From: the human T2T-CHM13v2.0 reference genome, Homo sapiens
Reading direction: 5' to 3' (one strand)
Assembly: GCF_009914755.1 (NCBI RefSeq)
Contig: NC_060939.1
DNA: 64,000 bases
Part shown: positions 25,491-55,857 of the stretch, in pieces
Position numbering within the stretch: position 1 is the first letter of the stretch
Layout: each line of letters starts with the position of its first letter
Notes under the pieces: generated by a model
What the model saw: the letters and a program-made list of their open reading frames with translations, nothing else
Databases searched by the model: none
What the model was told of the DNA's origin: nothing
Position numbers and translations under genes: made by a program

Positions 25491-25539
25491 CAACTCATTT
25501 TTAAAACCTAAATAAATGTATTTAAAAAGGAAACTTTTG

Positions 25540-25805: not shown

Positions 25806-25820
25806 AAGGAAACTTGTGGT

Positions 25821-25985: not shown

Positions 25986-27080
25986 ATCAGTCTCATTCAC
26001 TACAGATAGAAGGAAATGGTAAAAATCAATTCATCCGCATATCGCCTAAAATCCTCCTGTGGGCCCCAGGTTGCCACAGCACACTTTTGGGCAGGAGCCC
26101 CACTCACAGAGGCCGTGACAAGAATGCTCCTGCCCCTGGGGTTGTGCAGTGACAGCTCACACAGCTCCACGTGGCGGTTCTGAGTTTGGGAAGCGCTGAT
26201 GTAGTCCTACTGCAGCCCTTCCTGCCCTTCACCGGACTGAGGAAATCCAGGCTCTGAGGAGGGCGAGACTTGCCCAAGGTCACCCAGCAACATGGTCAGT
26301 CTCCTTTCCCAGGGCCCTCACAATGCGTGGCCTGTTTAAAGCCTGCCTCTATTCACTGCTGAGTGAAAAATCCAGCTCCAAAACAGAATATGGGGAAGGA
26401 TACTATCTTGTGCAGCTTATGTTTATAGCTGCAGATACATGGGAAAACAAGTCAGAAAATACTGTTGAAGCAGTTATTTGGGGAGAGAAGGGGTTTGCTG
26501 GTTTTTTGTGTTTTTAACTTTTCTATATCTCATAATTTTTATCACAATAATGTTTAGTTACATAATCAAAATGTATTAAATATAATATTAAAAATCGACA
26601 TGAAGCCTGATCTAGCCACGGTCTATTGTTGGCAGAGTCAGGAAGCCTTCCAGATAGAGCAGGCCCTGCACCTGCCCCAGGTCACACCCTTACCCCATGG
26701 TGGCCTCCACATCCATACCCATGAGCATCTCCTGTGGGTGAGGCCCTCCCCTGCATCCAGCCCTGGGCACCCCCAGCCCAGAGGGCACCTCATGGTCTGA
26801 GAGTCCACCTGTCTGTCTCTAAAGAGAGGAAAGCTCCTTGGGACATGTGTTCTGCTTGACGCATCACCCCTGGCCTGGTACAGAAAGGTGGACAGTGGGT
26901 ATTTGGTGAATAAATGAATGAATGATTAGAACAAGTCCCCAAAATGGTGATTTCCTGAGGCCCTTCTCCAGCTTGCCTAGGTGGAACCAGTTCCACTTTT
27001 CACAGGAAAGCCAGGTGTGAGGAGTGGGGCAGGTATGTGTGAATGGCCAGGTTCTCGAAGGCTGGATGGATACAGGGCTT

Positions 27081-28825
27081 ATGGCAGGTCTGGGGTTGGC
27101 AGTGCTGCTGTGGGAGCCTGTAGGAGGGCTCGTCTTTGGAATCCCCCAGGGTATCCTGGTGCCCTCAGCTGCTGCATGGTGTGAGAAGGCCTGGCTTGTG
27201 GGGATGCACAGGGTCTTGTTTGGATTGGCCACCTGGTCCAGCCCAGGGAGCTATGCTTCCTGCCCCTCAGGGAAAACTCACTTTTGATGTGTAACAACAG
27301 CTGCAGGCAAGGGGAGGTAGAGGTGTGCTGGGCCTCGGCCTTAGAAGCCAGAAGCCAGTTCATGCCCCTACGTGGGAAAAGGATGATATACGTGGGAAAG
27401 GGATGGGGCCTTGGCTAGCTCTAGGGTCCTGGGTTATGGTCAGAACCATATGGACTTATATGAGTCACTTATGGACTCAGTGACTTGGGCTGACCCAGCC
27501 CCTCCCTGAACCTCATCAGTGAAACCAGGACGGGGCCAGGGCTCTCGACGCCTCCCAGCTCCAACCTCTGGCTTTCTCCCAGGAGGGCAGGAGATCAGAC
27601 AGAGGTAACCTGGGCTCCCCTGTTTACGTCAACCTCCTTGTGAAGCCTCCCTCTTTCTGCCTGTGAGGTGGGTGGGGCCAGAAGGAGAGGCATTCACCTG
27701 TGGGTCTCTGACTTCTCTGCCCAGGTGTGCCTGGAGAGCCTGGTCTATACCCGGTGCTTTGCTACACCCCACAGCCTGGCCAAAGCCTCCCTGCCTCCAG
27801 AGCAGCCCTGGCCCTGGGAAGAAGCTGGTCTCTGCATTGAATGACAGGTAGAAAATTAAAGTGGGGATGATAGCTCTGGAAAGGAGTCAAGGAGGAGTTG
27901 CCTTCCCAAGGACACAGAGGGTTTTTCCAGAATGGAACTTGACTGGTGTGGGCAAACATCAGGAGGTGGGAAGGGTGGCTCCCTCTGCGGGAGCTGGGGC
28001 AACTTGCCTGGGCCAAATGGTGGTAGGTTGTGGGTAGGGCAGGCAGAGCTGGGGTGCTCAGAGCCTGGGTTCTCTGTCCTTGCAGAGGACTGGAATTCAA
28101 AACAAGTGTCCCCTGCCCTGTGGCTGGGGGACATCCTCTACTTCCAAGCCCAGACATACACCAGCTGCCACAAGCCCCTGAGGCTCTTTAGAGGACCAAT
28201 GGACAGCCACACCCACAATGGGCCAGCCTGCTGGGCCACCTGCACCCTGGTCAGAGCCCATGACTGAGGGGACTCTCTGGGGACAATGGGGGCAGTCCCA
28301 TGCTGCCCTCTTACAGGTGGATCAGTCCCTGGGATCTGGTGTTGGGCTAGGGTGGGCTGAGGCTGTTCTCTGCCAGGGTGCCTGGTGGACAGCAGGTAGA
28401 GCAACTTGTCCTTGGCTTTCCTGGACCCCAGGACACAGCTGAACACTGCACTTTACCCTGGATGTCTTCAGATTCTCAGGGGACCCTGGGAAGGAAGAGG
28501 GGGATGCCCCAGCAGGAGGCCAGGGCCCTGGGCTATGCTTGCTCCCCCCAGTCCCTCCAGCAGGCACCTCCTCTCCACATCAACATCACCTGATTCCTGA
28601 AGGCCTGGGCTACTGACAAGAGCCCCAAAACCCTCACCAAGGCCTGTTCTTGTATCAGAGCAACTAGTACGAGTTCGGAGCTGAAGGGGGCGGAGAGAAA
28701 ACTCAGGGCTCTGTAAGAGTTCTCAGCTCCCTACTGTGGTGGGCCCCGTAGAAGTCCCCCCAGAAATCTGCAGCTGCTGTAAGTCACTGGGAGGAAGCTA
28801 CAGCAGACATGTGTTTCCCAGCCTG
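27081..28825 (+). pseudogene. Unprocessed zona pellucida ZP3-family pseudogene; exons about 27081-27306, 27605-27667, 27725-27847, 28086-28263, 28377-28493, 28579-28670, 28739-28825
   Basis: Collinear peptides match ZP3 exons 1-7: WCEKAWLVGMHRVLFG-IGHLVQPREL; KKLV..SLH*MTE; EDWNSKQVSPALWLGDILYFQAQTYTSCHKPLRLF-EDQWTATPT; CLVDSR*SNLSLAFLDPR..LHFTLDVFRFSGD; INIT*FLKAWATDKSPKTLTKACS; PVEVPPEICSCCK. Many stops, indels and broken splice sites. Confidence 0.88.
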
Positions 28826-29414
28826 GTAGATGCAGAGGGGTGTCCGGGCCCCGAGTGGGAGGCCCAAACACAGCCTTGGATATGGCAGTGCAGGATTCTA
28901 GACAGCTCTGGGGCCCTGGGCAAGTCATTTAGCCTCTCAGAACCCCATTCCTGGTCATCATGGGGCTCTTGTGTGGATGTAAAGAACCCCCCTGGCCACT
29001 TATGTCCCATCAGTGGAAGCCTAGCATGGGTGGAGACCCCTGAGACTGAACTCAGTGGTGGGATCCAGCCTGCCCAGCTCTCCTACATAGAGCCCAGAGC
29101 CAGGAGGATGGGCTTCCTGGAGAAGCAGGCACTCCTGTGGGCTGGAGAGCATGAGCAGGGGTCCCCTTGGGGAGGTGGAAGAGGCTGCGGTCAGTGAAGG
29201 CCATAATGAGGCAGAGCTTGGGCAAAAAAGGCATGATGATCAGGGGATCTGAAACCCAACAGAGACTGGACTGAGGACACTGTGGCCACCTCCTCCAGGT
29301 GTCGCTCAGGAGGTGGAAGCTGAGCTAGGGCTGGGCCCTTGTCCTGAGTAACGCCTCACCAGTCTTGGAAGCTATACCCAAGGTGGCTTCATGTAAGGGT
29401 GCATCTGCGCACTC

Positions 29415-29570
29415 TTTTTGAGATGGGGTCTTCCTCTGTCATTCAGGCTGCAATTCAGTGGCACAATCATAGCTCACTGCAGCCTCAAACTCCTGGGCTC
29501 AAGTGATCCTCCCACCTCAGCCTCACAAAGTATTATAATTATAGGCCTGAGCTATGGAGCCTGGTTTAAA
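29415..29570 (-). mobile_element. Alu monomer (FLAM-like)
   Basis: Single reverse Alu arm. Confidence 0.75.
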
Positions 29571-30713
29571 ATCTTAATAAATATCTCCTCCTGGTCTGCT
29601 TCCCTGGCTGACACACATGCTGGCATCTTGCGCCTAGACAGACATGTCTCTGGACTTGGTTCCATTTGTTCTGTCGGGCTCCTCTCTCTCAATGACCGCA
29701 CATTACAGTATGTGGCTATTCTTACACATTTCTGTATAGAACTGAGGGTTAGTATATTAACGTCAAAGTTCTACTGGTTTTTCGAGGCTGGGTGGAAAGT
29801 TTGGGTTAATTTAGGAGTGGGCATCTTGACAATATAGGCTTTTCTTCCAGGAACGGTGATTCTGGGACGCAGGTTTTGCACATTCTGGTTTATTGCTTGA
29901 CTCGCTGCCACAGAGGGATGTCACTGCTCCACACGCCATGCCCAAGAGATGTCCCACCTTATCTTTCTAAATCAAGCTGAATGTTTTCAGCTGACAGGAT
30001 ATCACGAGTGCTGCGGGGACTCACTCCCCTCAACCCGAGATGAAGTGAGGCGGAGACTATGGAGCAGATCCGTGCTGAGTGCATTTGCCCTTCCTGACCT
30101 GCACTGCTGCTGGCTGGGGCTGTGTCTGAGCTGTCAGAGGGCATTGATTTGGGGATGGGGTGGGGGGCAGTGCTGGAGAGATGCCCCTCACCTTCCTCAG
30201 CTCCTCCTGTCCAGCCGACACTTGGCCACCAAGGCCCCTGACTTCCAGGCCCCAGTCACCACTAACAGGGTGCTGCATGGGAACAAAGTGTAGCCCCAGA
30301 ACCTGGAGTTCAGGTCACTCCTCCTTCCAGTCGAAGCCTCTGCCCCTCCCAGGTGATTCCAGCCTCGTTCCTCCATGGGCCAAATATCCTAAACAAAGGC
30401 CTGGACAGGGGGTCTTTATCTGACTGCCCAGAAAACACACACAGAAAGGCTCTGCATGCCCTCTGTGGCCTGCCAGGGGTAAGAGCCTGCCCGTCAAAAT
30501 GCACAGTCCTGGTTCTTGCAGGGAGTTGAGGAGCAGAAGAAGAAACAAAGGTCCATCTCATTCTTTCAGCAGGAACCTAAACTTGGGAAAGCCAGACGCA
30601 GTACATTTCTTAATCCTGATACTTTTATAACTGGTTATAGCTGGGTCACATGCACAACTGTTTTCCAACATCTTTCAACAGGCCACATAACATCCTGTAA
30701 CTTCTTTTTTTAA

Positions 30714-31163
<450 letters not shown>

Positions 31164-31243
31164 TAGACTGCCATTGGCAAATGCCAGTTGATTATCCACC
31201 CACATGTATGTTAATGGATTTCCCATGTTTTATTTGTCTAGAC

Positions 31244-31451
31244 CAGGCTTTCTCCACAGCAGCACTGTTGATGTTTAGGGCTGGACAGTTCTCTGTTCTG
31301 GAGCTGTTTGCGCCTCGCAGGATGTTTAGCAGCATCCCCAGCCTCCGCCTGCCACATGCCAGCAGCACTCCTCAGTGTGACAGCCAAAGTGATTTCAGAT
31401 ACTGTCAAATATCCCCAGGGCGGCAAAATCACCTCCAGTTGAGAACTGCTG
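31244..31451. mobile_element. MER20 DNA transposon
   Basis: GCAGGATGTTTAGCAGCATCCCC...GGCAAAATCACCTCCAGTTGAGAACTGCTG. Confidence 0.75.
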
Positions 31452-31584
31452 ACCTAAAACCCTCTGGAACAATGTTAGATCATGGTAACGATAGCGCATA
31501 CTGCTCCTGACCTTAATGGGAATACCTCTAGCATCAAAGTATAGTAGTACCTGTATACTACTGTCTGGGCTGTTATTAGTACAC

Positions 31585-32807
<1,223 letters not shown>

Positions 32808-33311
32808 TTAACATATATACATATTCTCCAGTATATTCATAACATATTCTCTAGTATATTTCCCTATATTTGTGGTTTTCAAAGCATAGTCTCAAATTGG
32901 AAGTATCAGCGTCACCTGGGAACATAGACATGCAATGCTCAGGCCCCACCTCAGTCCTATTGAGTTAGAAACTCTGGTGTGGGGCCCAGCAGCCCGTTTC
33001 ACAAGCCCTGCAGGGGATTATGATGCACTCTAATGTATGAGAACCACGGCTCTAAATAGTCAAATCATCTTTAATTGTAAAACAAGTATCTGTGAAATAA
33101 TGCTCCAGTATGACATTAAAATGCTCCAGCACGCCACCCACTTTATTTCTGAATTTAAATACTTTGTCTGTCTGATGTTAAATTTGCTGTTTTTTTCAAA
33201 TACTCTTAAGACAGTTTTTCATCGGTTCTTAATTTTCTCTTTTTAAATAAAAAATGGTTTTCCAAATCTATCCATTTTTCTCTTCTTTAACCTATTGATA
33301 GGATGAAATAA

Positions 33312-33935
<624 letters not shown>

Positions 33936-34208
33936 ATGTTCTTAAAATTTTTCTTTGACATGGTATAGGATAGTCTAGTAACTTAACATACTGTTGTTTT
34001 CAACAGGCTAGTGCTTATGATTTGTAAAAGAACTCTTCAGAAATGAGTTCAATTTTACCATGAATTGGGACATTTTCCATTTCTTTCTATTCCATAGAGC
34101 AGTTTACTTGTCATGAGCTCTGTCTTTTGAAAACCTGAAAGCCTGCAATAAAACCAGCTGCACCTGGTGCATGGGATAGGCATGGAATTGAGGAGAGAGC
34201 TCAAACTA

Positions 34209-34501
34209 CGGTCAGCCCTCTGTATCCTCGGGTTCTGGATCCTTGGATTTGACCAACTGTGCATCAAAAATATTTGGAAAAAGTAAAATAAAAAAACAAA
34301 TTTAAAAATACTTCATACAGCTATTTACAAAGCATTTACGTTGTATTAAGTATTATAGTAATCTAGAGGTGATTTAAAGTCTACGGAAGGATGTGCATAG
34401 GTTATATGCAAATACTATGCCATATTATATCAGAGCATCTGTGAATTTTGGTATCTCTGGGGTCCTGGAACCAATATCCTGAGGTTTCTAAGGGACAACT
34501 G
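34209..34501. mobile_element. MER2 (Tigger-family) element
   Basis: TA flanks; inverted ends CGGTCAGCCCTC / AAGGGACAACTG; internal GGATGTGCATAGGTTATATGCAAATACTA. Confidence 0.75.
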
Positions 34502-35119
34502 TATTCAATTTCTTCTCTGGTTATTAGTCTATTCTCTAATGTATTTTTGTTGTTGTTTTGTCTTTTTGTTTTTGCCTCTTCAAGTCAATGTCGGAAACTT
34601 AGTTGTTTTAGACAACCCATTAGCTCAGAGCTACCAGTAAGCAGACTACCACTGCAATCTAAGCAACGGATTTTTTCCCCCATCAGACTGGCAAAAAATA
34701 AGCATCTATTGATGTTGAAATTGTAGGGAGTTTTCCTGAGCATGTTAATTATGACAGCCCTTTTTGCTAGGCACCTACACAATTCATCAAAATGAAATAA
34801 AACACCCATGCACTTGAAGAAGTTATCTGGTTATTTCCTTATCTGGGTGCTGGTTATGTGAGGTCTACAGTTAATGAACACTTATTAAGCTTTATATTTC
34901 TAATAGGTACAATTTTCTGCATGTGTAGTAGATTTCAATAGTTTTTAAAATGTCTTTTGCCGCAGCCCGCAGCTGTGTATAATGCTATTCGCTTAACAGT
35001 GGAAAACATGACAATGACCTGAATCCCCCTGGCTCCCGGGATCCTACCCCCTTAAGTTAAACAAATGAAATAACTTCCACTGTCTTTCCTAATGCCTTAA
35101 TTCGGTCCTCAGTTAAACT

Positions 35120-35352
35120 GGCGGTGGGCGCTGCTTTTTTTCCAGGGAAGGATTCTGGAAGACATAGGAGGAGACGCCAGCATTTCGCCCTCCAGCACCC
35201 CCTGCGGGCTGCGGTCCGCTTCCGGCCTCACTCGAGCAGGCCCCGCCCTCCCAGAGGCCGTTTGTCCAAGTCACGTGATCGTCGAATCTGTTGACCTGGC
35301 GCCACCGGAAAAAGAAATTCCCGGGCCCTGGCTTCTTGGCCTGATGGTGAGG
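35120..35352 (+). promoter_or_regulatory. Duplicated housekeeping-type CpG promoter with an ATG-only first exon (COMMD4-like)
   Basis: ETS CTTCCGG at 35219, GC box at 35240, GTCACGTGA at 35270, CCGGAA at 35305, then GGCTTCTTGGCCTGATG|GTGAGG at 35344-35352. Resembles my recollection of the COMMD4 5' UTR; no exon 2 found downstream. Confidence 0.6.
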
Positions 35353-35584
35353 CACCAGAGGTGAAGCGAGGCATGGGCTGCTGGAGCGGGAATGAGGGGG
35401 CGACAGTGGCTCCGGAAACGGGGGGAGGGTGTCTTCACTGGCCTCTCCGCAAACACAGTGTGTGCGGGTGTGAGGGCTGCAGGTCTGGTAGAGAAGAGTC
35501 CACCGCCATCCCGCTCCTGAGACGGGGGCAGGAGTGGGGGGCAGGAGTGGGGGGCGGGTAAGACAGAGCAGGCCGGCCGGCTTG

Positions 35585-35845
35585 TGGAGGGCGAGGCAGG
35601 CAGATCCCTTGAGCTCAGGAGTTTGAGACCAGACTGGGCAACATGGCAAAACCCCATCTCTACTAAAAATACAAAAAATTAGCTGGGCATGGTGGCACAT
35701 GCCTGTAGTCCCAGGTAGTTAGGAGGCTAGGGTGGGAGCACTGCTTGAGCCCAGGAAGTAGAGGCTGCAGTGAGCCGAGATCATGATGTCACTGCACTCC
35801 AGCCTGGGCAACAGAGTGGGACCCTGTCTCAAAAAATAAAAATAA
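35585..35845 (+). mobile_element. 5'-truncated Alu
   Basis: Alu body with A tail. Confidence 0.85.
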
Positions 35846-37525
35846 AGTGGAAGCATCAGTATGCATGATTGAAGTCATGCTTTCCATCTATTTTTTTCCA
35901 CCTTCCCTTTTTTCTGTCTAAAACATTGTATCTTAAGCTTTTGCCTATGTTATCAAGTACTCATAAGCATTATTTGAATGGTTGTATCATAATCCATTAT
36001 CTGGACTCATTGTCATTTATCCATCTGCAGTTGCTGGAGATACTGCTCTTTCTGCCACACTCAGTCACCCTTCTGACCTTGCACTGTGTCCAGTTACCTA
36101 CTAATACCCATACTGGTCATTTAGGACTTAAGAATAGTTATCATAGTTTTTAACATTCCAAAAAGAATGTGTCTTCCTAAAAATAGAATGGCTTGGTGGT
36201 TATACTTTTAAAGCAAAATAGACAAAGCCATGTTGAAATTAATGTTTTATTTTCTTCTTGTATCTATTTTCACTTCTCTTGTCATTTTGATGGATAAAGT
36301 TTCATTTGGAAGGATTTTTATTTCAAAACAGAAATAGCATATGACATGAGAAGGGGAACTCTGAAAGGTTCAACTTCCTAGTTTACTAAGTTTGTCACAA
36401 AAGCTACTGATAGTCAATCATGATTGGCCTGTATTGAAAGTGAGTTAACATTATGTACAACTTAAGCACTATACTTTCTATCCGATACAGAAAAATAGGT
36501 GGTGTGTTTGGAAAAGTGTTGGGCTAGGAGTCAGGAAGCTTGATTGTTAGTCCCAACCCTGCTTCTTGAGCTGAGCACCCCTAGGCAATAATTCAGCAGC
36601 TATTTCTTAAATACCTAATGAATTTCAGGCTTTGTAGTTGGGCTGGGAATATAGACATAGATACTGCATTCATGATTCTCCAAGCCTCCCTTCCTCACCC
36701 CGGCTCACAGTGAGCTTTCTTATGCATTGTGTAAATTTGTCTCCTAACAGGCCCCAACTCTGTCTCCAACCTCCTTCCCAGGGCAGTTGTGAGGATCAGA
36801 TGAGGGAGAATATGTGTGAAAGCAAATTGTAAATTATTTTAAAATGCAATAAAAATATGATCCATGGAAAATTATTTAAAGATCCTTATTAAAATTATTA
36901 AAGATCCTTAGAATTTTAAATAAACAGTACATTAGGCCGGGCATTGTGGCTTAGGAGAGCGCTGGGTCAAATCAGTCCCCTCCAGCTACGCATTGCCTGG
37001 AGCTGCTCTCCAAGGACCCCTCAGCCACAGAAGGCGCTGGTCCTCCTACAGTGCTGCCCCACCCCCACCACCACAGCCTCCTGGGGGTGCAGTCAGGGGT
37101 GCCCTCCTTCAGGCTCTGCCCCTGCACCCACTCCTACACAACTACTCTCCCGGCCGGCAGCCCCAGAGACCAGATTGGTTTGGGCCTCTGCCTCCGCAGG
37201 CCCGAACCACCATCTCTTCTGCTCCCCAGAAAGCCAGCTCCCAGCACACAGGCAGCGTTCCCTCTTCATTCCTCAACACAGAGGGCCCCTCACAACCCTC
37301 TCAGCAGATGGTAGAGCTCCCCACGCATCCTCTTAAAGAGGCTTCACCGTTGATGGCCACAAGCCCCACCATGACCTCCTCCCAGGGAGTGAATTTTCTT
37401 ACATGTCTCCCACCAGAGCAGGGACAAAATAAAACATAAAAGCAGCAGCTGTTAAATTATCAGTAACATTTCCTACTAGGATCAACTCACGGAGTGGGCA
37501 GTGTATTCCATTAGGTGGATCAGTG

Positions 37526-37861
37526 CAGGGGTTAGCAAGCGTTTTCTGTAAAGGGCCCGATGGGAACTCTTTAAGGCTCTGCAGGCCACTGGGTCTCTGT
37601 CACCACCTACTCAAACCCTCCCCTGTAGCAAGAAAGCAGCCCTAGCAACATGTCAACAGATAAGCGTGGCCACATTCCCAGAAACCTTTCTTTATGGACA
37701 TGGAAGTTTGCATCTCACGTAATTCTCATGTGTCACAAGATACGACTCTACTTTCCATGTTTTCAACCATTTAAACATGTAAAAGCCATTCTTAGCGCGT
37801 GGGCCACACAAAAGCAGGCAGCAAGAAATTTGGCCTTTACACCAACAGCAGCTGACCCCTG
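37526..37861. mobile_element. MER58B hAT element
   Basis: CAGGGGTTAGCAAGCGTTTTCTGTAAAGGGCC...GCTGACCCCTG terminal inverted repeats. Confidence 0.75.
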
Positions 37862-38945
37862 GATGGAGCATTAGAGCTTGGGTGTGTGTCCCACTCCAGG
37901 GCTTCCAGGAGAGGGGATGCAGGCCGATGCCACCTCCACCCCTGTCGCTCTAGGGGAGAGGGCAGAGCTGGTGCTGTATGAAGTTTGGCTGCAGATCCTG
38001 GGCCAGCCCTACACCAAGGCCTTGGAGGACAAAACCAGCCTTGAGTTCTGGGCACTTCAGGGGCAACCGACAAGATGGGTGAAGTGGCGGGATGAAGTGG
38101 GGGGGCGGGGAAGAAGCCTCGGGAAGATGGGGGATGACTGGACAAGACTTTGGTAGAGCTGTGACCCTCTTCATCCTCTCCTGACCCCCCAGCTGACCCT
38201 CGTCCTCAGATCTCTGCAGAACTTTGACCAGTGGTGGTGGAGGAATTCCGGTGGGTCCAGGGTGGCCCTGGGTGACCCAGGGCTCAGACCTGGGTTCTGG
38301 GGTTGAAGGCAGGAGGCTGGAAGAGATGACCTCCCCTAGTCCCCCAAGGCTGCCCAGCCCCCTGAAGTGGGATGATCCTCCCACCAGGCTGGACCCACTG
38401 ACCGTCAGAGTGGGTGCCACCTTCTTCAGGGCGGCATCAGCCCAGGCTCTCGTGTGGGTCTGCACACCCTGGGGGAGGCAGAGGGCCTCTTGGTAGACAC
38501 GGTCATCTCAGACCTCGGTCAGTACCTCCTTCCCTCTGCAGGCCCCCTCCCTCTGTCCATCTGCCTCCTCCCTTGGGCTTGCTGCCTCTACATGCCCTGA
38601 TCTGAAACCTGCCTCCCCTCCTCATGGAGCCCTCCAAGATGCTCCTAGCCCCAGCTCTCTGGTCCCGCAGCAACTTCTGGTGCCAGATTCTGCCTTCTCA
38701 GAAGTCTGGGAGGCAGGGCCCCGCCTGGCCATAGCCTTCTTGGTCTGCTCTAGGCACTGCTAGCCTTGAAGCCTCCAGCCTGCTGGATGCCTCCATCCCC
38801 GGCTATGCTGTGGCTCTCCTCATTCTAGGCCTCCTGCTCGTCACATTCACCCTTGTCCTGGTGAGTGTCTGGCTGGGCCCAGGCTCCTTCCTGAGGGGCA
38901 GGCTGAGCCTTTGATGCCTTGAGCCTTGAGCCAAGCTGAGGAGTG

Positions 38946-39046
38946 AGCAGGCCCCTTTACACCCCTGATTCCCCCACCCAAGCCCAGCATCTCCTCATCC
39001 TCCAGCTGGGGCTGCAGGGTTTGGGGCCAGGGGGCTGGGCCTGATC
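38946..39046 (-). ncRNA. MIR4313: Annotated microRNA hairpin; mature AGCCCCCUGGCCCCAAACCC at 39036-39017
   Basis: The reverse complement matches the miR-4313 precursor as I recall it. Confidence 0.65.
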
Positions 39047-42000
39047 CCAGTGTCCCCACCCTTCTTGTCAAGGTGCTAAAGTGGAGGGCCTCCCATGGGG
39101 TGTTCAGCCTGGGTGTGTAGAAGCACACAGTGTGGTACAGAGGACCCTCTCCAGACAGGTAAGTGGAGGGCGGTTCTCCCTGACCCCACCCCAATTGTTT
39201 GTTCTGGGTGGGGTCCACCGAGCCCCCTGCCAAGGCCTTCTGCAAACACTCCCCAGGGGCTGTTGTGGGCAGCACCTGGGTGGTGCAGTTGGTGTGCCAG
39301 AAAAGCTCCCCAGTACTGTGGGCAGTGGCCCAGGCAGTCAAGCAGACTCCCTCAAGCAGGCCCCACCTACCCCTCGCCTGTTCCCAGCTGCCTCCCACCA
39401 ACCCTAGAAATGATGCTGGGAGCTGACAGAAACTGAACTTAGGAGCACAGGAGGCCAGGAGACCTGGGACAGAGAACAGGAGGTATGGGGAGGGAATCTT
39501 CCTTCCCCCACTTCCCACTGCATGAGGGCCAGACAGTGGCACCTCCAGGTCCTGGAAGGACACGTGTGGACCCAACTCAGTTGGCCCTTTGTCTTATGGC
39601 CTTTCTTCTCCCTCCCCCGGGGCCAGGTGGATGTGGGAGGAGACGAACCACCATCCTGGGTGCACTCAGACTCATTCCCCACTCCTGGCCTTCACTCCCT
39701 TTCCTCTACACACAGGTGACCCCTCATGCTGCTGCTCCCTCTGCTGAAACCCAAACTGCAAACCTCTCCTCTCCCTGCCTTCACCTTGCCCCACGGCTTC
39801 CACAGACAGTGCCTCAACCCCGAGGAATGAATCCGAAGTTCCAACACCACTGACTTTCCCAGGAACTCAGAGCCAGAGAGGGCCAAGGACCAGCTCGAGG
39901 ACACACAGCCAGGGCTTCTTCCCTCCGAAACCCCCAAGGACTGGACTTGCAGGGCTGGGACAGAGGTGGGGTGGGGGAAAGCAATGCCTTGTCAACCCAC
40001 GTGGGGAGCCCCACTCCCATCCCCAAGGTGCATAAAGTTGAGGAACACCCCTGCTCCCACGTCCATGCTCATTCAGGGCCCTGCTCCAAGTGCTTGGCAC
40101 TCACACCAGCCTCCTGCCCTCCACAGGTATTGGTCTCGTTTACAGATGGGGAAATGGTGGCCAAGAGCCTCCCCCAGCACATATAGCTAGACCACACAGA
40201 GGACTTAGGCACAGCTGGGGGGTCCGCAGTCTCTGCTGCCTCACCTGCCACCAAAGTGTGGTCCTGCTGCCAGGTGGCAGGAAGGGGACAGAAGCCCGCC
40301 CCAAAGAGGGCTGGGGCAGGGGCACCCTTACGCCTGCCTGGTCTGGCCCAGTAGGGCTGGAGAGACTGTCAGTCCTAAGAGAAACACTGGCCTTTTGGGA
40401 GTATGGAAAAGTCAGGAAGCAATCCAAAGTTGGTATTTAAAATATTGATTTCTAGATATTTAGATGGTCATCTGGTGTGAGGAGCTGGGAGGGCCCCAGG
40501 GTAGAGTCCACAAGAGGAGGAAGATTGAAAAGGGGTCAGAGTGGAAATGGGAGCTGCTGAGGGCAAGGCCCAACCCCCTCCTTGACTCCCCAAAGCCAGC
40601 CACAGAGCCAGTCAGCCTCAGGCCAGAGGGTGTGAGCAACGGGGACCCTGGCTGCTCTACAGTGGATCAGAGCCACTGGGTGTGGGGAGTCTTCCAGGGC
40701 AGGTGTGGGGCCGCCGGGGCAAGGCAAGCTCCCAGGGCAGAGACTGAGGCCACCCCCTGCAGCCCCACTGCAGGGGGGAACACCGGGATAGGCAAGGGTC
40801 TTAACCCAGAAAGCCCCAGCAGCTCCCGTGCCCATCAGGACACCATTGAGGCTTGGCGGTGGTGGAACCCAGGAATGGTCTTTGAACCCATGACCTGGAA
40901 GGGGGAGCCAAGGATAGTCCTGGCCTGAAAGCTCTCTACCTGCAGGCAGTGTGGAGGCCCAGCGAGGGGACCCCAGGAGCCCAGACCATGAGCTTACGTG
41001 GCCAAAGACAGCAGCCAGCACCAAGACATCAAAGAGGGCGGGTAGAAAGATCATCACATAGGGGTTGACTGCGGCCGGCACCAGGTTCCTCTGTACTTCT
41101 GGAACACACAGGCCTCTCCTTCCTATCCCTGAAGCGCCCATGCCCCCACCCCGGCACCCCGAAAACCAGCCTAACATATGCATTTGTCCTGGGTCAGCCC
41201 CACTGTCCAAGCAACTGCAATTTCTGACTAGAGAGCCAGGGCAGGGCAGGGTGTAGGAGGGGTCCCTGGAAGATGCCCCCAGAATGCCCTGATGCCTAAA
41301 ACGTTCCCCGTTGGGCCTTCTCAGGGAGGGAGGGTTAAGACAGCCTTGTTCTCTCCAGCTACCTCCATCACCACTGGAGCCCTTACAGGCGTCAGGGGAG
41401 AGAATTGGCTCAATGGAGCCAGGAACAGCATGGACACAGCCCTGGGGCTGAGGCTAAGTGGGCTCTGGGAGACCGTCACTCTCTCTTCAAGCTTTGGTCT
41501 CCTGGCCCTCTACAAGCCAGGCTGTTTCAGGCTTTGCGTTAGGCCTTGCTCAGAGACAGAGTTGAAACACAGCTGGTGGACACAGTGGGCTTTAGGGAGG
41601 GGGCACGTACCTGGGGGTGGGGGCTGGGTAACAGGGAACGGAGGCCCTGGGGCTAGCGTGGCCTGTCTGGTGGTGGTGCAATGGGACCTGCACCACCTGA
41701 GGACAGAGGGTCCACCTGGAAGACTGGACCAGCCAGATGGCCACCAAGCTGGATGGCCACCGTCAGAGCCTGCAGGACAGCAGAGGGGGCTGGGAAGGGA
41801 CAGAGGACAGCTGAGGGGCAGGGAACATGGGTTCCTCCATACAGACACATGAGTCTTCCCTAAGTGGGTCTTCCCCGTGAGGGCGAGGGGGCATTCAAGA
41901 CACACCTCCAGCCCACCTCAAACCATCTCAGGAGGCCACCACCAACTCACACAGGCCAGTTGCATTGTCACAGTGACCCCAGAACAGCACAGCCCTGTCC

Positions 42001-44161
42001 TTCAGATGAATAAACAGAGGGAGAGACGCATGTCACAGCCAGGAGCTGGGACTCAGACCCAGGTCCAGCTGCAGTGCTTTCTCGATGGCTCTGCCTGCAC
42101 CTCCTCCAGGACTTAGTTCCTGCTAACAAGTGAGCACTTGAGTACAAGTGAAATAGGTGCTATTATCCCTGTCCAGCTGTCTGGCTGCTGGGGAAAGGGA
42201 AGCAAGGCACAGGTGACTTGCCCAAGGCCAAAGTGACAGGGCTGGTTCAACCCCATCTGTCTCAGCCAGCACATCCCCATGGCAGAGGCTTTACTGTGAT
42301 CCAAACCTGGAAGGTGGAACTCCTTCCAATGTCCCACCCAGGGCACAGAGTATGCAGCCCCATGTTTGGGGAAGTGACCGGGTGGGGAGGTGACAGTGTG
42401 GGAAACAATCCAGCTAGGCCAAGGCCTCATGGAGCCCAGGGTTCCCTAGGACCAGGAGAGCTCTGGAGCCCACCCCGACACCCATTGGAAACCTGGAATC
42501 CGCACCTGCAGGAGATCAGGAGAGGGGTTTGGCCTCCGATGCACCTGCAGCAAGGTGAGACAGGCACAGGTGGGCGCCCTGCTTCCAACCAGCGTCAGGA
42601 GAGCAGGAAGCAGATCTCCTGCCTGACCTTCCTCTCCTGCCTCCCCCAAGCAGAGGAGAAGGGGCAGCCGCCCATCAGGCCATTGCCCAGATTGAAGCCA
42701 CTGAAGCTAGGTCCCAACAGGTGAGTGTGACCCCTGACTATCCCAGGCCCGGCCCAATGCAGTCCTGTCTCTGGTGAGGACCTGGTAGACAGGAGATGTG
42801 ACATCCCCAAGTGGCTCTATAAACCTCTTATTGAGGATAATCAAGGAAATGGGCAAGACCATCACGCTCAGCAAAGAACCTGGCAGGCACGAGGGGGACC
42901 AGGGGCAGGCAAAAGTCAGTTTGGGCCCAGGCCTGGCCCCTGGAAGGATGGTGGATGAGGGGCCAGCCACGGTGAAGGGGAATGGATGGCCACGGGCTGG
43001 GTGGTCAGGACTGTCAGCTCCTGCAGCCCCTGCGGAATGTCTGCCCAGGCCTGGCTCTGCGCTCAGCCTTCTGCCTGGAGCCACAGGTGCCTGGACACCA
43101 GCCTCAAGTAGGGATGGTGGTAGGAAAGGCACTTGTGGCCACACGTGGGCACCTAAGCATGGGACAGAGGGGTATCATGCCCCAAAGAGACTATAGAGGC
43201 CAAGAACTTAAGCAGGTCTGACACCATCAATAAATCCCCTTGTCCTGGGTCACATCAATTAAGTCAGCGCCTACCCTGACCCTGAAGCTGCAGCTCAGTC
43301 TGGTTGAGACACACAGAGATGTTAGTGCTGGGCAGGGGGCCTGGCCCAGCCTGCGATGTCCAGCAAAGCTGTGGGCTGGACAAGATCTCTGAAGATTAGT
43401 CCAGGACAAGGACAGCTGTGTCTGGGCAGGGAGTGGGGGCAATGCTCAGGGGGCAGGAGGCCTGAGGACCTTTAACTAGGTAGGATGCCAGGTCAGGACG
43501 TGCAGAAGGGAAGGTGGCATGACAGCATCCTGCCCGAGGCCAGGCTATAAACCTCGGGGCTGCCCTGTCTAGCCTAAACCATGCTGCCACCCAGATGCCA
43601 TCCTTCAAATGTGAGGCTGGGCTGGGAGAGCCCCCAGACCCCTTATCCCTCCCGCCCCAAGCTGGTTCCCATCCCTCACCAGAAGGAAAGTGAACTCTTC
43701 TATGGGGCACATCCTGCCAGGTTCTCTATCACCTGGGGGAAGGGGTTGGGGGGAGGGGGAGCTGCAGCTGGGTGAGAAAGAGCCCAGGTCCACTCTGTCC
43801 CTACCTGACAGGTGACCTCGGGCAAGCTGCTTTCTTTGCCTGGGGCCAAGGAGAGTCACAGGGGAAGGGCCAGGTTAAGAGGGCTCCACCCTGGAGCCCA
43901 GAGCTACCCACAGAGAAAACCGCCCATCCTCTTGATTCTGCTCCCAGCTCATGCTGCTGGGATAACATCCCCCCCATCAGAGAGGCCGTGGGAGGCAGAG
44001 GCTGACCTTTGCTCCTTCAGGCACCTCAGCAGGTTTGGGTCCACCTTCATCATGATCAGGGAGTGGGTCCCTGGGATCACAAAGGTGAGGGGCAGCTTCT
44101 TGGGCTCCAGGTGCTCCAAGGTACACCCTGCAGGGCACCAGAGCTAGAAGGGCATTGGGGA

Positions 44162-44381
44162 GGCTGGGTGCAGTGGCTCATGCCTGTAATCTCAGCACTT
44201 TGAAAGGCTGATGTGGGTGGATCATGAGGTCAGGAGATTGAGACCATCCTGGCTAACATGGTGAAACCCCATCTCTACTAAAACTACAAAAAATAGCTGG
44301 GCGTGGTGGCACTTGCCTGTAGTCCCAGCTACTCGGGAGGCTGAGGCAGGAGAATCACTTGAACCTGGGAGGCAGAGGTTG
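44162..44381 (+). mobile_element. 3'-truncated AluSc/Y
   Basis: Alu sequence stops abruptly at GGCAGAGGTTG. Confidence 0.85.
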
Positions 44382-45016
44382 AACAGGGCTAGGACCTGAG
44401 CTCTGCCTGGCCATGGTGACTCTGAGCCAAGTAACCCTACATTAGTCTCAGTCTGTCACTGTGTCTCATAGGGGATGTCAGCATTACCTTTGGAGTCAAA
44501 GTAGGTAAGCCAGGGTAACCAGAGTTCCCTGCAGGGACCAAGACCAAAGGATGCAGGGGTCAGGCCTGTCCCAGAAGGTCAGGCTGAACAAGAGGCTGTG
44601 TCAAGCTGGGGCAGCTGAGGTCCTGCCCTTCAGGTTATAGGCATCTGGGTCCTGGTCTAGACCCTCATATGCCATCCAGAGACCCAACCCTAGGGACAAT
44701 TCCTCCCAAGCTGGTAGAAAGAGTAGATCATTGTACTCACCGCACCAAAAGCTCTGAAATGATAGGGCCTGTGGGTGGGGAGAAAGACTCTTCAGGAAAA
44801 TGTTCTCAGGGGCAGGGAAGGTTTGAGCTGGATCTTAGGGCAGCCAGAGAGGTAGGTGACAGGCCCCCTCACAAAGCCTGTCAGATAATGCAGGAGGGAC
44901 ACAGGTGTAGTGGTGGGAATGTTCTGGAAGACAGCAGGAAGCCTCCCACTCACTGATGGGGCTGAGTGAGGTCAGGTCCACACACCAGGAGAAGCTGGAA
45001 TCCGCACACCGGTGCA

Positions 45017-45295
45017 CTTTGTTTTTTGTTTTAGAGACAGGGTCTTACTCTGTTGCCCAGGCTGGAGTGTAGTGGCACAATCATAGCTCATCACAGCCTG
45101 GACCTCCTGGGTTCATGAAATCTTCCCACCTCAGCCTCCTGAGGAGCTGGGACTACAAGTGCATGCCACCGTGCCTAATTTTATTTTTTGTGGAGACAGT
45201 ATCTGGCTATGTTGCCCAGGCTGGTCTCAAGTGATCTTTCCACCTCAGCCTCTAAAAACACTGAGATTACAGGGACAAGCCAGTGCTCCTGGTCA
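45017..45295 (-). mobile_element. AluJ inserted into a relic SEA exon
   Basis: Reverse AluJ; TSD GTGCA(C/T)TTT at 45012-45020 and 45301-45309. Confidence 0.85.
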
Positions 45296-45616
45296 TGCTA
45301 GTGCATTTTGGCTGCCATGGTGCACAGGAGGTATGAGCTGGGGGGTAGAATCTGCTCCTGGACCTCTACCCAGGCCTGCACCCAGACTGACTCCTGGGCT
45401 GCAGGGAGCAGGTGTGGAGAGAATGCAGTGAGCAGAGCGGGCTAGCCAGTGATGGAGACCCAGGCTGGGACTAGGAGAGATAGGGCTGCAACCCTCGGCC
45501 TAGTGGCCCTGCCCAACCCACTGGGGCCAAGATGACTTCCTAGGAGCCAGGCATGGAGGCCAGCATGCACCTGAACTGAGGACAGAAGATTCTGATGAGA
45601 GGGAGGGGGAGGCCTC

Positions 45617-46651
<1,035 letters not shown>

Positions 46652-49351
46652 GCCTCCACGCTTGGTGCCCACTGGACCTGACACTCAGGGAAGGGCTGGT
46701 CTTGACTCTGCCATTAACAGCCAGACTATGACAGAGTTGTTCCCCTGCTCTGCCTCAGTTTGTCCTCTCTCAGCTAAGCAGAGCAGGGATAATTGCTTCT
46801 CATGTGGGCCCCAGGACAAAACAAAGCCCTGAGTCCCACAGGAAGGTAGATGGGTTATGTCCAAGGGAAGACAGACCTGAGGCAGTATTTTATGTTCCCG
46901 AGGTGGCAGAGGTACATGGAGAAGATGCTTCCTTTGTGGGCCAGGGAGAAGGGAAGATAAGCAGAGAGGTGCCAGACACCTGCCTCACCCCTACCTCCCC
47001 CACCCCATGCCAGGCCCATTCCCACTTAGCCCCCAACTCAGGCAGCACCATTCTACTTATGGTCAGCATGACTTCCCAGCCAAGCTGATGAAAGCTGACA
47101 GCTTGGATTCATCAGGGACAGCATGTAGTATAGGTGATGTGCAGGACGGAAGTGGAGAGGGGACATGGGAGCCACGGTGTCAGGTCTGGGGCTGCCAACA
47201 TGGTACCTGCCTTGGCTGTAAAAAAAAAAAAAAGTCACTGTTTTGGGGTTTTCTGGATGAAACCTCTGATTCCATTTTTTAAAAAAGGGTCGAGACAGTA
47301 TGTATTATTGATTCAAAGTCATAACCAGATGCTTAGAGTAAATCATTGCATCTATTGTTTCAAAAACCAACCTCAGGATTATTAAAAGTTAGTTTTATTG
47401 GATTTTTCTTTAGCTGTGCTTATTCACTCAGGTGAGACTCACTCAGGTCTGTCATTTCCAAGCCCATGTTTTACTACTTTGTAACCCTATTTGGAAGGAA
47501 AACTGCAGCTAAGATTATGACCCATCCTGCCATGAAAAGTTTCACACATATACACCACATATACCCCCCACCACAGTATGATGACACAGCAACCCAACCT
47601 CGGGCAAATGGTACCACTGCCAGCAAATGCATGTTTTCTTTATTTCTTCAAAATGTTTTTTCTTTATTTCTTCTAATAGCAGCAAATGCATTTAACATTT
47701 TATTGAGATTCTCAACAGCTGTCATTTGGTTTGTATAGCAAATTGTTTACAAAGTAACCTTTTTCCATTTTTGATATTTTAATGAAAATTATGTTCTTCA
47801 GTTTTAAAGCCCCATCCCTCTCCCAAAGAAAGGTTAATAACTAACTACCAAGTAATGATTATTTAGGAAAAGAAGAAAAGCAAAACCAGCTTGTAAACAC
47901 TTCTGGAATGTGGGTAAGGGGCCAAAGTCAAGCCCTTCCGGGCCCAGTGCAGGTGCTAGGCTTGCCTCGGGACACCATCAGCACTTCCCCATCCACAACA
48001 TCCTCAACAGCTGGGAGCCATGTGTGGACCCAGGGGGCTTCCTGTTCCACAAGCTCCCCTCTCTTTTTCCTCTCCACGCTTGCTGTTGGGCCTCCCTTCC
48101 AAATCTGCCTAACAAAGGCAGCAGGATCTTTAATACTGTTCAGCTTTGTCAATGGAGACAGGATACTCTAGAAAGTTGAGAGATCCCTGGTCCAGTCTGG
48201 GGGAGGAAAAAATATACAGTGTAGCATAGATGGTTTTACTTGTCCATTCAGACACATGCTCATACTTATTAGATGGATGTATCAGATGCTTCAAAAGTCC
48301 TGATGTGTAGTAGCACAAAAGCTGCTTGTAAAAAAAGAAGTTGCAAAATGATAAAAATTTCTGCAGCAGTTCAGGCTCCTGATGACAAAGCTGGTTCTGA
48401 TAAGTAGTTATTTTGACATGCACAGCAGGTTTCACTGTAAGTCCTGTGTTCCAGCGGTTTCATTTAGACCATAGGAAGTTGAAAGCAAAGTTTAAATGTT
48501 CTCTGCTGACAAAATGTGGTATATATCCATCAATGGACTTCTACTCAGTAATGAAAGGAACAAACGACCAAAACCTGTTATATGTCATGGACCAACCTCA
48601 AAAACATTAGCTAAGTAAAAAAGCCAGACACTTATTGTATAATTCCATTGATTTGAAATGTCCAAAAAAGGCAAGTTGATAGAGACGGAAATGGTCTGAT
48701 TTACCTCAAGAGGTAGGGATTCAAGCTCTCTAGAGTACATGTGATACATACATGAGAAAAAATAAGGAAAAGAAAATAAATTTATATGTAAATAAATGAA
48801 AATAATACTTCTCCCTGATTATAAAGAAAATCACTTTCTTTTTGTAATAATTTGGAAGACAAAATATGAAGAAAAGTCTTAAATTTTGCCACTCAAAACA
48901 TTCTGGTTTGTTGCTTTTTGTATTTTTTATGCATATGAACATTTTAAAAAGTAGAATTGTAATATATAGTCTTTTGTCACTATGTTTTGGGCATATTTCT
49001 ATGGCAGTAAATATATCCTTGGCATCATCCTCTTTAAAAGCCCGATGTATATTAAGTTAATCATTGCCACCCCAGAAGTAAATTTTCTTATACAAATATA
49101 GTTTAATGGATGCAAGCAAGCATTTTTGGGCTGAATTCATAGAAGTAGAATTTCTGGAGGAAAATAACATAAAGCAGTTTTAAGATTTTTAATAGAAATT
49201 TTCAAATTATCCTGCAGAAAAATTGGTTCAGTTTATACTCCCAACAGGGGCAGAGCTCCAGTGTCCCCTTCCATTTGTCCTCTTTGCTGGTATTTAAGCA
49301 GAAAATCTCATTGTTTTCATTACATTTATTTGGTTTCTAGTGCTTTTGAAC

Positions 49352-50125
49352 CTTTTTTTTTTTTTTTTTTTTTTTTTTGAGATGGACTCTTGCTCTATAG
49401 CCCAGGCTGGAGTGTAACAGTGTGATCTTGGCTCACTGCAACCTCCACCTCCTGGGTTCTGGGTTCAAGAGATTCTCCTGCCTCAGCTTCCCGAGTAGCT
49501 GGGATTACAGGTGCCCACCACCATGCCTGGCTAATTTTTGTATTTTTTAGTAGAGACGGGGTTTCACCATGTTGATCAGGCCAGTCTTGAACTCCTGACC
49601 TCAGGTGATCCACCCACCTCGGCCTCCTAAAGTGCTGAGATTACAGGCGTGAGCCACTGTACCTGGCCTTGAATCTTTTTTATATGCTTATTGGCCATTT
49701 TTATTCTTGTGGGAAATGTCTGTTTCTCCATTGCCTGTTTTCTGGCCAACCTCCAAAGTCACATTTCACTTTTATCCTGTTGATTGAAAGCATTTTAACT
49801 TAGTGATTTTTTAACATAACCAGGAGCAGGACAGACTGTAATTATCTAGATCTTGCTCTGTCACCCAGGCTGGAGTGCAGTGGCATGATCATAGCTACTG
49901 CAGTCTCATACTCCTGAGCTGAAGCAATTTTCCTACCTCACCCTCCCAAGTAGCTAGGACTACAGGTGTGTGCCACCATGCCCAGCTAATTTTTAAAATT
50001 TTTTTATAGAGATGTGAATTCGCTATGCTACCCAGGCTGTTCTTGAACTTCTGACTTCAAGTAATCCTCCCACCTTGGCTTGTCAAAGTGCTGGAATTAC
50101 AGGTGTGAACTACTGCTCCCAGCCA
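49352..50125 (-). mobile_element. AluS (49352-49668) and AluJ (49850-50125)
   Basis: Reverse Alu consensus. Confidence 0.88.

Positions 50126-51273: not shown

Positions 51274-51650
<377 letters not shown>

Positions 51651-55478: not shown

Positions 55479-55857
<379 letters not shown>

What the first reader, a model, noticed from the sequence alone, without database searches (positions are those of the whole stretch)
27081..47185. A cluster of three lost extracellular glycoprotein genes carried inside a segmental duplication
The ZP3-like relic, the single-SEA relic and the three-SEA relic lie within 20 kb, and the two SEA genes converge tail to tail near 39.7-40.8 kb. Shared 125-nt first SEA exons and GTGGGT-type donors on the short exons suggest the SEA genes arose by ancient local duplication. 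Inference: an ancestral ZP/SEA gene neighbourhood next to COMMD4 was inactivated and later copied by GOLGA/DNM1 duplicons, so more copies should exist on 15q.
Basis: inference. Interest (0 to 1): 0.7.

Follow-up and report, generated by a model that had tools for sequence, protein, structure and literature searches.

The report
Duplicated fossil egg-coat and taste genes
This stretch of human chromosome 15 is a patchwork of duplicated DNA that holds broken pieces of an egg-coat gene related to ZP3, the tail end of a gene matching the taste-cell gene TRCG1 and likely a third, mucin-like gene; none is predicted to make a protein, and the egg-coat relic is likely what remains of a ZP3-type gene that birds keep in the matching chromosome region.

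Summary
The relics are mostly real, but the 20-kb cluster is a duplication mosaic. (1) The ZP3-type pseudogene is confirmed: exons 4-7 match human ZP3 in order (0 of 180 controls) and chicken ZP3 (E 1e-5). Five more copies lie on 15q; three compared copies share lesions, so it died before copying. (2) The 'single-SEA gene' is wrong: it is the cut-off 3' end (SEA3, membrane exon, tail) of a three-SEA TRCG1-like gene at chr15:73.095-73.104 Mb whose SEA and membrane exons are still open. (3) The minus-strand relic is probable: one exon matches TRCG1 SEA1 (0 of 130 controls), a 125/59-nt exon pair and a membrane exon exist, but three SEA repeats are unproven and no intact homologue was found. At the source locus the ZP and SEA relics are about 93 kb apart on opposite strands. 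Chicken has ZP3 and ZP3L1 in the COMMD4 region, so the ZP relic is likely a placental-lost ZP3 paralogue; no paper found reports it. Solid genome archaeology, no function.

The parts
25080..35583 (+). Duplicated block 1: ZP3-type relic plus COMMD4 promoter and exon 1; copy of chr15:73195542-73206375 (+)
   Evidence: about 90% with gaps; 8.2% substitutions over 4141 sites
27081..27860 (+). Presumed 5' part (exons 1-3) of the ZP3-type relic; not detected statistically
   Evidence: ATG and hydrophobic stretch in the sequence; no significant match
28086..28263 (+). ZP3-type exon 4 (178 nt as in human ZP3); frameshifted, donor GT lost in 3 of 3 copies compared
28378..28495 (+). ZP3-type exon 5; frameshift and a window-specific stop
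28574..28665 (+). ZP3-type exon 6; in-frame TGA shared by 3 of 3 copies compared
28728..28800 (+). ZP3-type exon 7, cysteine-rich start
35116..35360 (+). Copy of COMMD4 promoter/exon 1, used as exon 1 of lncRNA LOC101929408
   Evidence: aligns to chr15:73.206 Mb, upstream of COMM_HN exons; RefSeq exon from the hub table
35586..36886 (.). Alu plus 1.3-kb spacer from another duplicon family (copies on chr15, chr10, chr5): junction between blocks
36951..47218 (.). Duplicated block 2: inverted copy of chr15:73098043-73087179 carrying the 3' ends of two convergent genes
   Evidence: about 5% substitutions
37954..38078 (+). TRCG1-like SEA3 exon a (125 nt, open)
   Evidence: 78-96% identity to 11 proteins, 6 named 'taste receptor cell protein 1(-like)'; Pfam SEA E=0.2
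38193..38250 (+). TRCG1-like SEA3 exon b, 58 nt against 59 at the source (frameshift); GTGGGT donor
38388..38517 (+). TRCG1-like SEA3 exon c, 130 nt against 146 at the source (16-nt deletion)
38754..38860 (+). TRCG1-like membrane exon (107 nt); exon 2 of LOC101929408, out of frame with the COMMD4 ATG
   Evidence: hydropathy 2.67 over 19 residues
38943..39220 (.). 278-bp tract identical to the source locus, covering MIR4313 and the first tail exon; likely recent gene conversion
   Evidence: 0 of 5000 simulations
39073..40055 (+). TRCG1-like tail exons, now exons 3-5 of LOC101929408
   Evidence: hub table
40830..40894 (-). Candidate tail exon of the minus-strand relic
   Evidence: acceptor and short frame; inference
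40998..41097 (-). Candidate membrane exon of the minus-strand relic, open in 3 of 3 copies
   Evidence: hydropathy 2.46, GTAAG donor
41688..41833 (-). Candidate SEA exon c (frameshifted) of the minus relic
   Evidence: resemblance by eye to TRCG1 SEA1 exon c; not significant
42486..42544 (-). Candidate SEA exon b, 59 nt; donor ATGGGT here, GTGGGT in two other copies
42755..42879 (-). Candidate SEA exon a, 125 nt, open, donor lost
   Evidence: hhalign to SEA first exons P=0.003, probability 10.5%
43805..43935 (-). Exon remnant homologous to TRCG1 SEA1 exon c
   Evidence: score 56; 0 of 200 shuffles, 0 of 130 control regions
47058..47185 (-). Weak candidate first SEA exon a, next to the GOLGA junction; upstream signal-peptide exon lies only at the source locus
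   Evidence: no significant match
47210..64000 (+). Duplicated block 3: GOLGA6 core duplicon (GOLGA6EP), which cuts off the 5' end of the minus relic
   Evidence: hub table

Best explanation
The region is a mosaic of duplicated 15q24 blocks that carries a broken ZP3-type gene, the cut-off 3' end of a TRCG1-like three-SEA membrane gene and, likely, the 3' part of a second, long-dead SEA/membrane gene, none of them predicted to make protein. How it arose: (shown) all three derive from the interval chr15:73.08-73.21 Mb, where the order is DUF5525 gene (+), second relic (+), TRCG1-like (-), two GOLGA6 repeats, ZP relic (+), COMMD4 (+). (Shown) block 1 (ZP + COMMD4 exon 1) is 8% diverged from its source, block 2 (SEA genes, inverted) and the GOLGA block about 5%; the blocks meet at an Alu and a foreign 1.3-kb spacer. 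(Inferred) two rounds of GOLGA-duplicon copying in the primate lineage brought them together. (Shown) the ZP relic's lesions are shared between copies; (inferred) it is a ZP3 paralogue lost in placentals, at the old ZP3-COMMD4 site that birds keep. (Shown) the source TRCG1-like SEA and membrane exons are open and the window copy has its own frameshifts; (inferred) TRCG1 was copied while largely intact and was lost late. (Shown from RefSeq plus alignment) the copied COMMD4 promoter now drives a chimeric non-coding RNA through the TRCG1 membrane and tail exons.
For: Block map and strands; divergences; copies; ZP exon tests; shared ZP lesions in 3 of 3 copies; TRCG1 names and full source gene; Pfam SEA in homologues E 7e-9 and 1.5e-14; neighbours DUF5525 and COMM_HN; chicken ZP3 at chr10:3.088-3.091 Mb, 2.8 kb long like the compact relic; ZP3, ZP3L1, COMMD4, NEIL1, MAN2C1, CSPG4, UBE2Q2 in one chicken chr10 interval; an unnamed gene merged with COMMD4 at about 13,000 FPKM in turkey egg-coat tissue; minus relic: one search match, 125/59-nt exon pair, membrane exon, signal-peptide-like start at the source.
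Against: ZP exons 1-3 and 8 were not detected. Exon 4 is as close to human ZP3 (18 of 37) as to chicken ZP3 (16 of 37 by my count), so sequence does not assign the subfamily. The turkey gene beside COMMD4 is unnamed in the table. The minus relic has no Pfam hit, no DNA-level likeness to TRCG1 exons (0 of 20 tests with z>3), chained SEA2 and SEA3 tests at control level (94 and 83 of 130), no intact homologue and unrelated Atlas hits. Late loss of TRCG1 is not backed by codon counts (source lineage 3 synonymous, 5 non-synonymous), and every named primate protein found is a fragment of 194-445 aa, which could mean an older loss. No non-human genome could be aligned.
Confidence: 0.75

Rival explanations
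1. One reading: a compact ancestral cluster of three genes (ZP, single-SEA, three-SEA) that died together and was copied as one unit.
For: All three map to one source interval; ZP block and SEA pieces also lie within about 20 kb at 70.45, 71.96 and 75.80 Mb; much of the 93 kb between them at the source is GOLGA6 repeat, so they may once have been closer.
Against: No single-SEA gene; blocks differ in divergence, 8% against 5%; strand relation differs from the source; TRCG1 exons open at the source.
Confidence: 0.08
2. The minus-strand 'gene' is not a gene: chance splice-like sites and hydrophobic frames in GC-rich DNA behind TRCG1, or a scrambled old fragment of TRCG1 itself.
For: Negative results; only 1 of 10 exon queries significant, and it includes a proline-rich motif; exon order between 44.1 and 43.3 kb is ambiguous; the 2-kb source exon has 14-18 stops per frame and only slightly raised P/S/T content.
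Against: The SEA1-c match beats 130 controls in the window and in the source copy; 125-nt and 59-nt exons in the phases of TRCG1 SEA3; membrane exon open in 3 of 3 copies; strong start context with a signal-peptide-like stretch at the source.
Confidence: 0.2
3. The ZP relic is a remnant of ZP3.2/ZP3.3 or an old stray duplicate of placental ZP3, not the positional orthologue of bird ZP3/ZP3L1.
For: Feng et al. report ZP3.2 pseudogenes in cat, panda and opossum; some residues match human better than chicken; where chicken ZP3L1 falls among the subfamilies was not checked.
Against: Position directly upstream of COMMD4 on the same strand, compact introns, and two ZP3-type genes in the chicken COMMD4 region; 62-68% DNA identity to human ZP3 excludes a recent copy.
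Confidence: 0.25
4. The window copy has a function as RNA (LOC101929408 / MIR4313 host), kept by selection.
For: RefSeq transcript models; a 278-bp tract over MIR4313 identical to the source.
Against: Models are predicted; longest ATG frame 34 aa; no Rfam match for MIR4313 at gathering score; identity between two paralogues is what gene conversion gives.
Confidence: 0.05

Closest known systems
ZP3 subfamily (human ZP3 at 7q11; chicken ZP3, PDB 3NK3; marsupial ZP3-1a/1b/1c of PMC8005149)
   Same: Exons 4-7 in order, exon 4 of 178 nt with the same acceptor, cysteine-rich exon 7 start
   Different: Broken, intron-containing, 42-67% identical in the matched stretches, six copies on 15q; ZP-N exons, furin site and membrane exon not detected
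Trcg1 / taste receptor cell protein 1 (LopezJimenez 2005, PMID 15780750; seen only as a reference title)
   Same: 78-96% identity to primate proteins of that name or their unnamed kin; SEA exon triplet, membrane exon, tail
   Different: The window holds only the last of three SEA repeats, with two frameshifts; promoter replaced by a COMMD4 copy
SEA-domain transmembrane mucins (MUC16, MUC1 type)
   Same: P/S/T-rich large exon, repeated three-exon SEA units, one membrane segment; Atlas neighbours of the TRCG1 homologue are MUC16 clusters at 0.89 (a lead only)
   Different: Three repeats only; the minus relic's SEA identity is supported by one exon match
15q24 segmental duplication blocks A-E (PMC3261729)
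   Same: Copies at 70.45, 71.9, 73.1-73.2, 73.6 and 75.8 Mb fit five blocks; COMMD4 lies between C and D; C and D share 27 kb at over 93%
   Different: The passages read do not describe the gene relics; a sixth ZP copy lies at 76.6 Mb; the block letters are my assignment by position
ZPAX pseudogene and other human gene-loss relics (Goudet 2008, cited in PMC8005149)
   Same: Unprocessed remnant of an egg-coat gene lost in placentals
   Different: Multiplied by later duplication, which would hide it from unitary-pseudogene screens (inference)

Membership tests
ZP3 subfamily (as pseudogene) | ZP-C exons 4-7 in order, closest to ZP3 | tested here: met
ZP3 subfamily (as pseudogene) | ZP-N exons 1-3 and signal peptide | tested here: inconclusive
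   no score above controls; resemblance by eye only
ZP3 subfamily (as pseudogene) | Furin site and membrane exon 8 | tested here: not met
   120 of 180 controls as high
ZP3 subfamily (as pseudogene) | Pfam ZP domain hit | tested here: inconclusive
   no hit; the genome search found only one exon of the intact human ZP3, so it is insensitive
Positional orthologue of bird ZP3/ZP3L1 (ZP3-1a or 1b) | Conserved synteny with COMMD4 | tested here: inconclusive
   same chicken chr10 interval; unnamed highly expressed neighbour in turkey; exact gene order not seen
Positional orthologue of bird ZP3/ZP3L1 (ZP3-1a or 1b) | Phylogenetic grouping | not testable with these tools
   no marsupial or bird sequences could be fetched (one search returned 3 unnamed near-identical fragments)
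TRCG1 | High identity to named TRCG1 proteins | tested here: met
TRCG1 | P/S/T exon, three SEA repeats, membrane segment | tested here: met
   at the source locus; the window has the last third only
TRCG1 | Position between C15orf39 and COMMD4 as in mouse | not testable with these tools
   human side shown; mouse order is recalled
TRCG1 | Taste-cell expression | not testable with these tools
   title of PMID 15780750 only
SEA transmembrane mucin (minus-strand relic) | SEA domain by profile search | tested here: inconclusive
   no hit, but positive controls also missed; hhalign P=0.003
SEA transmembrane mucin (minus-strand relic) | Homology to a SEA exon of TRCG1 | tested here: met
   1 of 10 exons; 0 of 130 controls
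SEA transmembrane mucin (minus-strand relic) | Three complete SEA repeats | tested here: inconclusive
   two repeats have some support, exon order ambiguous
SEA transmembrane mucin (minus-strand relic) | Signal peptide and membrane segment | tested here: met
   hydropathy 2.25 (source only) and 2.46; prediction by hydropathy alone
Duplicated (unprocessed) pseudogenes in a segmental duplication | Introns kept, over 1 kb at about 90% or more to a source, disabling lesions | tested here: met

The most novel reading that the evidence does not exclude
The human genome keeps, in six unannotated copies, the fossil of the original COMMD4-linked ZP3 locus, the positional orthologue of the bird egg-coat ZP3, so placental ZP3 on 7q11 is a relocated paralogue; beside it lie a taste-cell mucin gene (TRCG1) lost only late in the ape line and an undescribed sister gene of TRCG1 that died earlier.
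Probability: 0.45. Interest if true: 0.6.

Novelty: new member of a known kind. Interest (0 to 1): 0.42.

Why it matters
It gives a physical address for one of the ZP3 paralogues that reviews say placentals lost without naming a human remnant (PMC8005149), and makes the orthology of bird ZP3 (the structural model of the sperm-binding protein) to mammalian ZP3 testable by synteny. It points to a nearly intact human TRCG1 locus whose date of loss can be fixed from ape genomes and population data, and to a possible unknown SEA-mucin gene to look for in other mammals. It also explains LOC101929408 as a COMMD4-TRCG1 chimera. Nothing suggests a working protein in this window, so medical weight is low.

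Tried and rejected
Pfam on 31 raw frames and 20 read-through frames: no SEA or ZP hit, positive controls included, so uninformative. Genome-wide Pfam searches for SEA and ZP listed nothing on chr15. A home-made SEA profile from MUC16 and TRCG1 exons missed the known positive exon: discarded. Self-alignment of the window showed no DNA likeness between the two SEA genes, nor did exon-wise DNA alignment. In one search the ZP3 exon-3 score (55) passed all 200 shuffles but at the wrong place, so I counted it as false; exon 7 did not pass there (51 against a maximum of 52.5) although it did at protein level. Searches for intact homologues of the minus relic and of the ZP relic returned only unnamed fragments close to the query (4 of 16 and 3 of 3 candidates; 10 hits). 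PDB search with the minus exon: nothing relevant. Atlas with a stored fragment of the minus relic: unrelated clusters under 0.9. A recent copy of human ZP3 was rejected (62-68% DNA identity). A chimeric COMMD4-TRCG1 membrane protein was rejected (out of frame in both exon-1 forms). Literature: 10 searches found no report of a ZP3 pseudogene at 15q24 or of a human TRCG1 pseudogene; supplements of three gene-loss screens had no Trcg1 or ZP3 row (Zp3r rows only). The Feng 2018 supplement with its pseudogene table and synteny figures could not be read, and Goudet 2008, Moros-Nicolas 2018 and LopezJimenez 2005 were not seen; they may bear on novelty. No structure prediction was run: no contiguous domain exists in the window.
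Full report
Question.

1. The window is a mosaic. Searching the genome with the ZP stretch gave five other loci on chr15 (70.445, 71.97, 73.197, 75.81, 76.606 Mb; 86-91%; the remaining rows of 58 are Alu matches). The SEA stretch gave one whole copy at 73.09 Mb, three loci with pieces of both genes (70.46, 71.96, 75.80), three with the minus-gene piece only (73.145, 71.93, 71.906) and a 1-kb copy on chr1. I fetched 160 kb of chr15:73.06-73.22 Mb, 30 kb at 76.6 Mb and the chr1 copy; the copies at 70.4, 71.9 and 75.8 Mb were not fetched, so lesion comparisons use 3 of 6 ZP copies and 2-3 of 8 minus-gene copies. Alignment splits the window: 25080-35583 matches 73,195,542-73,206,375 (+); 35586-36886 matches a spacer of another duplicon family; 36951-47218 matches 73,098,043-73,087,179 (-); 47210 onward is GOLGA6. 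Substitution divergence is 7.5-8.3% among three ZP blocks and 4.8-5.2% for the SEA and GOLGA blocks. At the source the ZP relic and the TRCG1-like gene are about 93 kb apart on opposite strands, with a 20.7-kb GOLGA6 repeat pair between; in the window they are 9 kb apart on one strand. The source interval is flanked by a DUF5525 frame and by COMM_HN exons; the names C15orf39 and COMMD4 are recalled and fit PMC3261729 (passages), which also describes five duplication blocks A-E in 15q24.

2. The ZP3-type relic is real. One exon hits chicken ZP3 in the PDB (E 0.0022); a read-through gives three collinear pieces (E 9.7e-6). Against human ZP3 (fetched), exons 4-7 match in order and 0 of 180 control regions score as high; exons 1-3 and 8 do not stand out. 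At DNA level exons 4-6 pass 200 shuffles, exon 7 does not. Identity is 62-68%, so this is an old paralogue with its own short introns, not a recent copy. The lost exon-4 donor and the exon-6 TGA are shared by 3 of 3 copies: dead before duplication. A review (PMC8005149, passages) states that placentals lost two of three ZP3 subfamilies and names human remnants only for ZPAX; Feng 2018 (PMC6262864, parts 1-2 of 5 read) lists ZP3.2 pseudogenes in cat, panda and opossum, none in human. Chicken ZP3 is a 2.8-kb gene at chr10:3.088-3.091 Mb (PMC10030024, one passage). A chicken GWAS table lists ZP3 and ZP3L1 in one chr10 interval with COMMD4, NEIL1, MAN2C1, CSPG4 and UBE2Q2 (PMC10976558, one passage). 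In a turkey egg-coat transcript table an unnamed gene shares one assembled locus with COMMD4 at about 13,000 FPKM, while NEIL1 and MAN2C1 are near 10 (PMC8508634, supplement rows); I infer it is ZP3. Inference: the relic sits at the old ZP3-COMMD4 site. Against: residues are no closer to chicken than to human, and no tree could be built. In the same turkey table C15orf39 is 16 locus numbers from COMMD4, so the C15orf39-COMMD4 interval is probably not a bird arrangement.

3. The 'single-SEA gene' is truncated TRCG1. The 125-nt exon at 37954 found 11 proteins among 37 candidates, 6 named taste receptor cell protein 1(-like) in primates; two homologues carry Pfam SEA. They map to 73,103k-73,094k as a large P/S/T exon, three SEA repeats of three exons each, and a membrane exon. 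All ten SEA and membrane exons of the source translate without a stop and keep phase; the large exon has one stop in 633 codons, with frame differences from a monkey prediction around it; the first tail exon stops after 15 codons in both copies. The window has only SEA3, membrane and tail, cut at 36951, with a 1-nt and a 16-nt deletion of its own. So the order 'inactivated, then copied' is doubtful for this gene. Against late loss: codon counts are not informative (source 3 synonymous and 5 non-synonymous, window 2 and 10) and all primate proteins found are fragments. LOC101929408 joins the copied COMMD4 exon 1 to the TRCG1 membrane and tail exons, out of frame; longest ATG frame 34 aa.

4. 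The minus-strand relic is probable, not proven. For: TRCG1 SEA1 exon c matches 43874-43803 (score 56; 0 of 200 shuffles; 0 of 130 overlapping control regions in the window and in the source copy); a 125-nt and a 59-nt exon have the sizes and phases of TRCG1 SEA3, with hhalign P=0.003 in register; a membrane exon is open in 3 of 3 copies; the source has a start codon with a signal-peptide-like stretch 2.6 kb beyond the point where GOLGA6 cuts the window copy. Against: 9 of 10 TRCG1 exons give nothing; SEA2 and SEA3 chains are at control level and the whole chain is matched by 17 of 130 controls in the window, 4 of 130 in the source; no DNA likeness; no Pfam, PDB, Atlas or homologue support, though Pfam and my own profile also missed positive controls; exon order at 44.1-43.3 kb admits two readings. 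I put it at about 0.75 that this is a decayed TRCG1-related SEA/membrane gene, and lower that it had exactly three repeats.

5. Mechanism. Shown: source interval, block structure, divergences, lesions, truncations, chimeric transcript structure. Inferred: loss of the ZP paralogue and the second gene long before the duplications; an older copying of ZP + COMMD4 exon 1 and a younger, inverted copying of the SEA ends with GOLGA6, both in primates (by recalled human-macaque divergence of about 6-7%); later gene conversion over MIR4313. No product is expected from the window.

6. Known or new. The duplication blocks are known; TRCG1 is known from mouse (title only seen) and a human pseudogene name may exist (recalled, unverified). 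RefSeq shows no ZP or SEA pseudogene in this window (hub table). Ten literature searches (listings and abstracts) and three gene-loss supplements did not report the ZP3 relic or the second gene; subscription papers and the Feng supplement were out of reach. Verdict: new members of a known kind; interest 0.42.

Noticed in passing
window 38943-39220; G000:C15:73095741-73096019: 278 bp over MIR4313 and the first tail exon are identical between window and source amid 5% divergence (0 of 5000 simulations), so the genome holds a second identical miR-4313 hairpin; three other copies are 89%. Likely recent gene conversion between blocks 500 kb apart.
   Followed up: partly
window 37954-38860: TRCG1 exons differ from the source more than the introns between them: 42 of 420 against 18 of 487 sites (p=1.5e-4; without CpG sites 28 of 388 against 17 of 474, p=0.02). 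Unexplained: conversion mosaic or fast protein evolution.
   Followed up: partly
L025:4393-5364 (G000:C1:168506393-168507364): A 1-kb intron-containing copy of TRCG1 SEA3 exons on chr1, 14-15% diverged, with stops, in AT-rich flanks: an older stray duplication.
   Followed up: partly
L012-L013 (G000:C15:73094700-73104500, minus): The human source TRCG1-like gene is nearly intact: ten open exons and one stop in the 633-codon large exon. Worth checking for polymorphism.
   Followed up: partly
window 43751-43855 and P0025: A stored unnamed protein joins COMMD4 exons to the minus-strand relic at about 43.84 kb, hinting that another duplicate makes a different COMMD4-relic chimera.
   Followed up: no
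G000:C15:70459111-70459114, 71961353-71961356, 75802007-75802009: Three other copies fuse the large exon of the second relic directly to TRCG1 SEA3 exon b in opposite orientation, a junction absent from window and source.
   Followed up: no
PMC8508634 Table S1: The paper's report of COMMD4 as a top transcript in the turkey egg coat is probably an artefact of merging with an unnamed neighbour, likely ZP3.
   Followed up: partly
window 62992-63073: Rfam mir-1233 family match inside GOLGA6EP, not in the RefSeq table.
   Followed up: no
G000:C2:17870354, C2:19915235, C22:30896400, C3:68050799: Other ZP-domain matches with internal stops in the genome-wide Pfam search; not examined.
   Followed up: no
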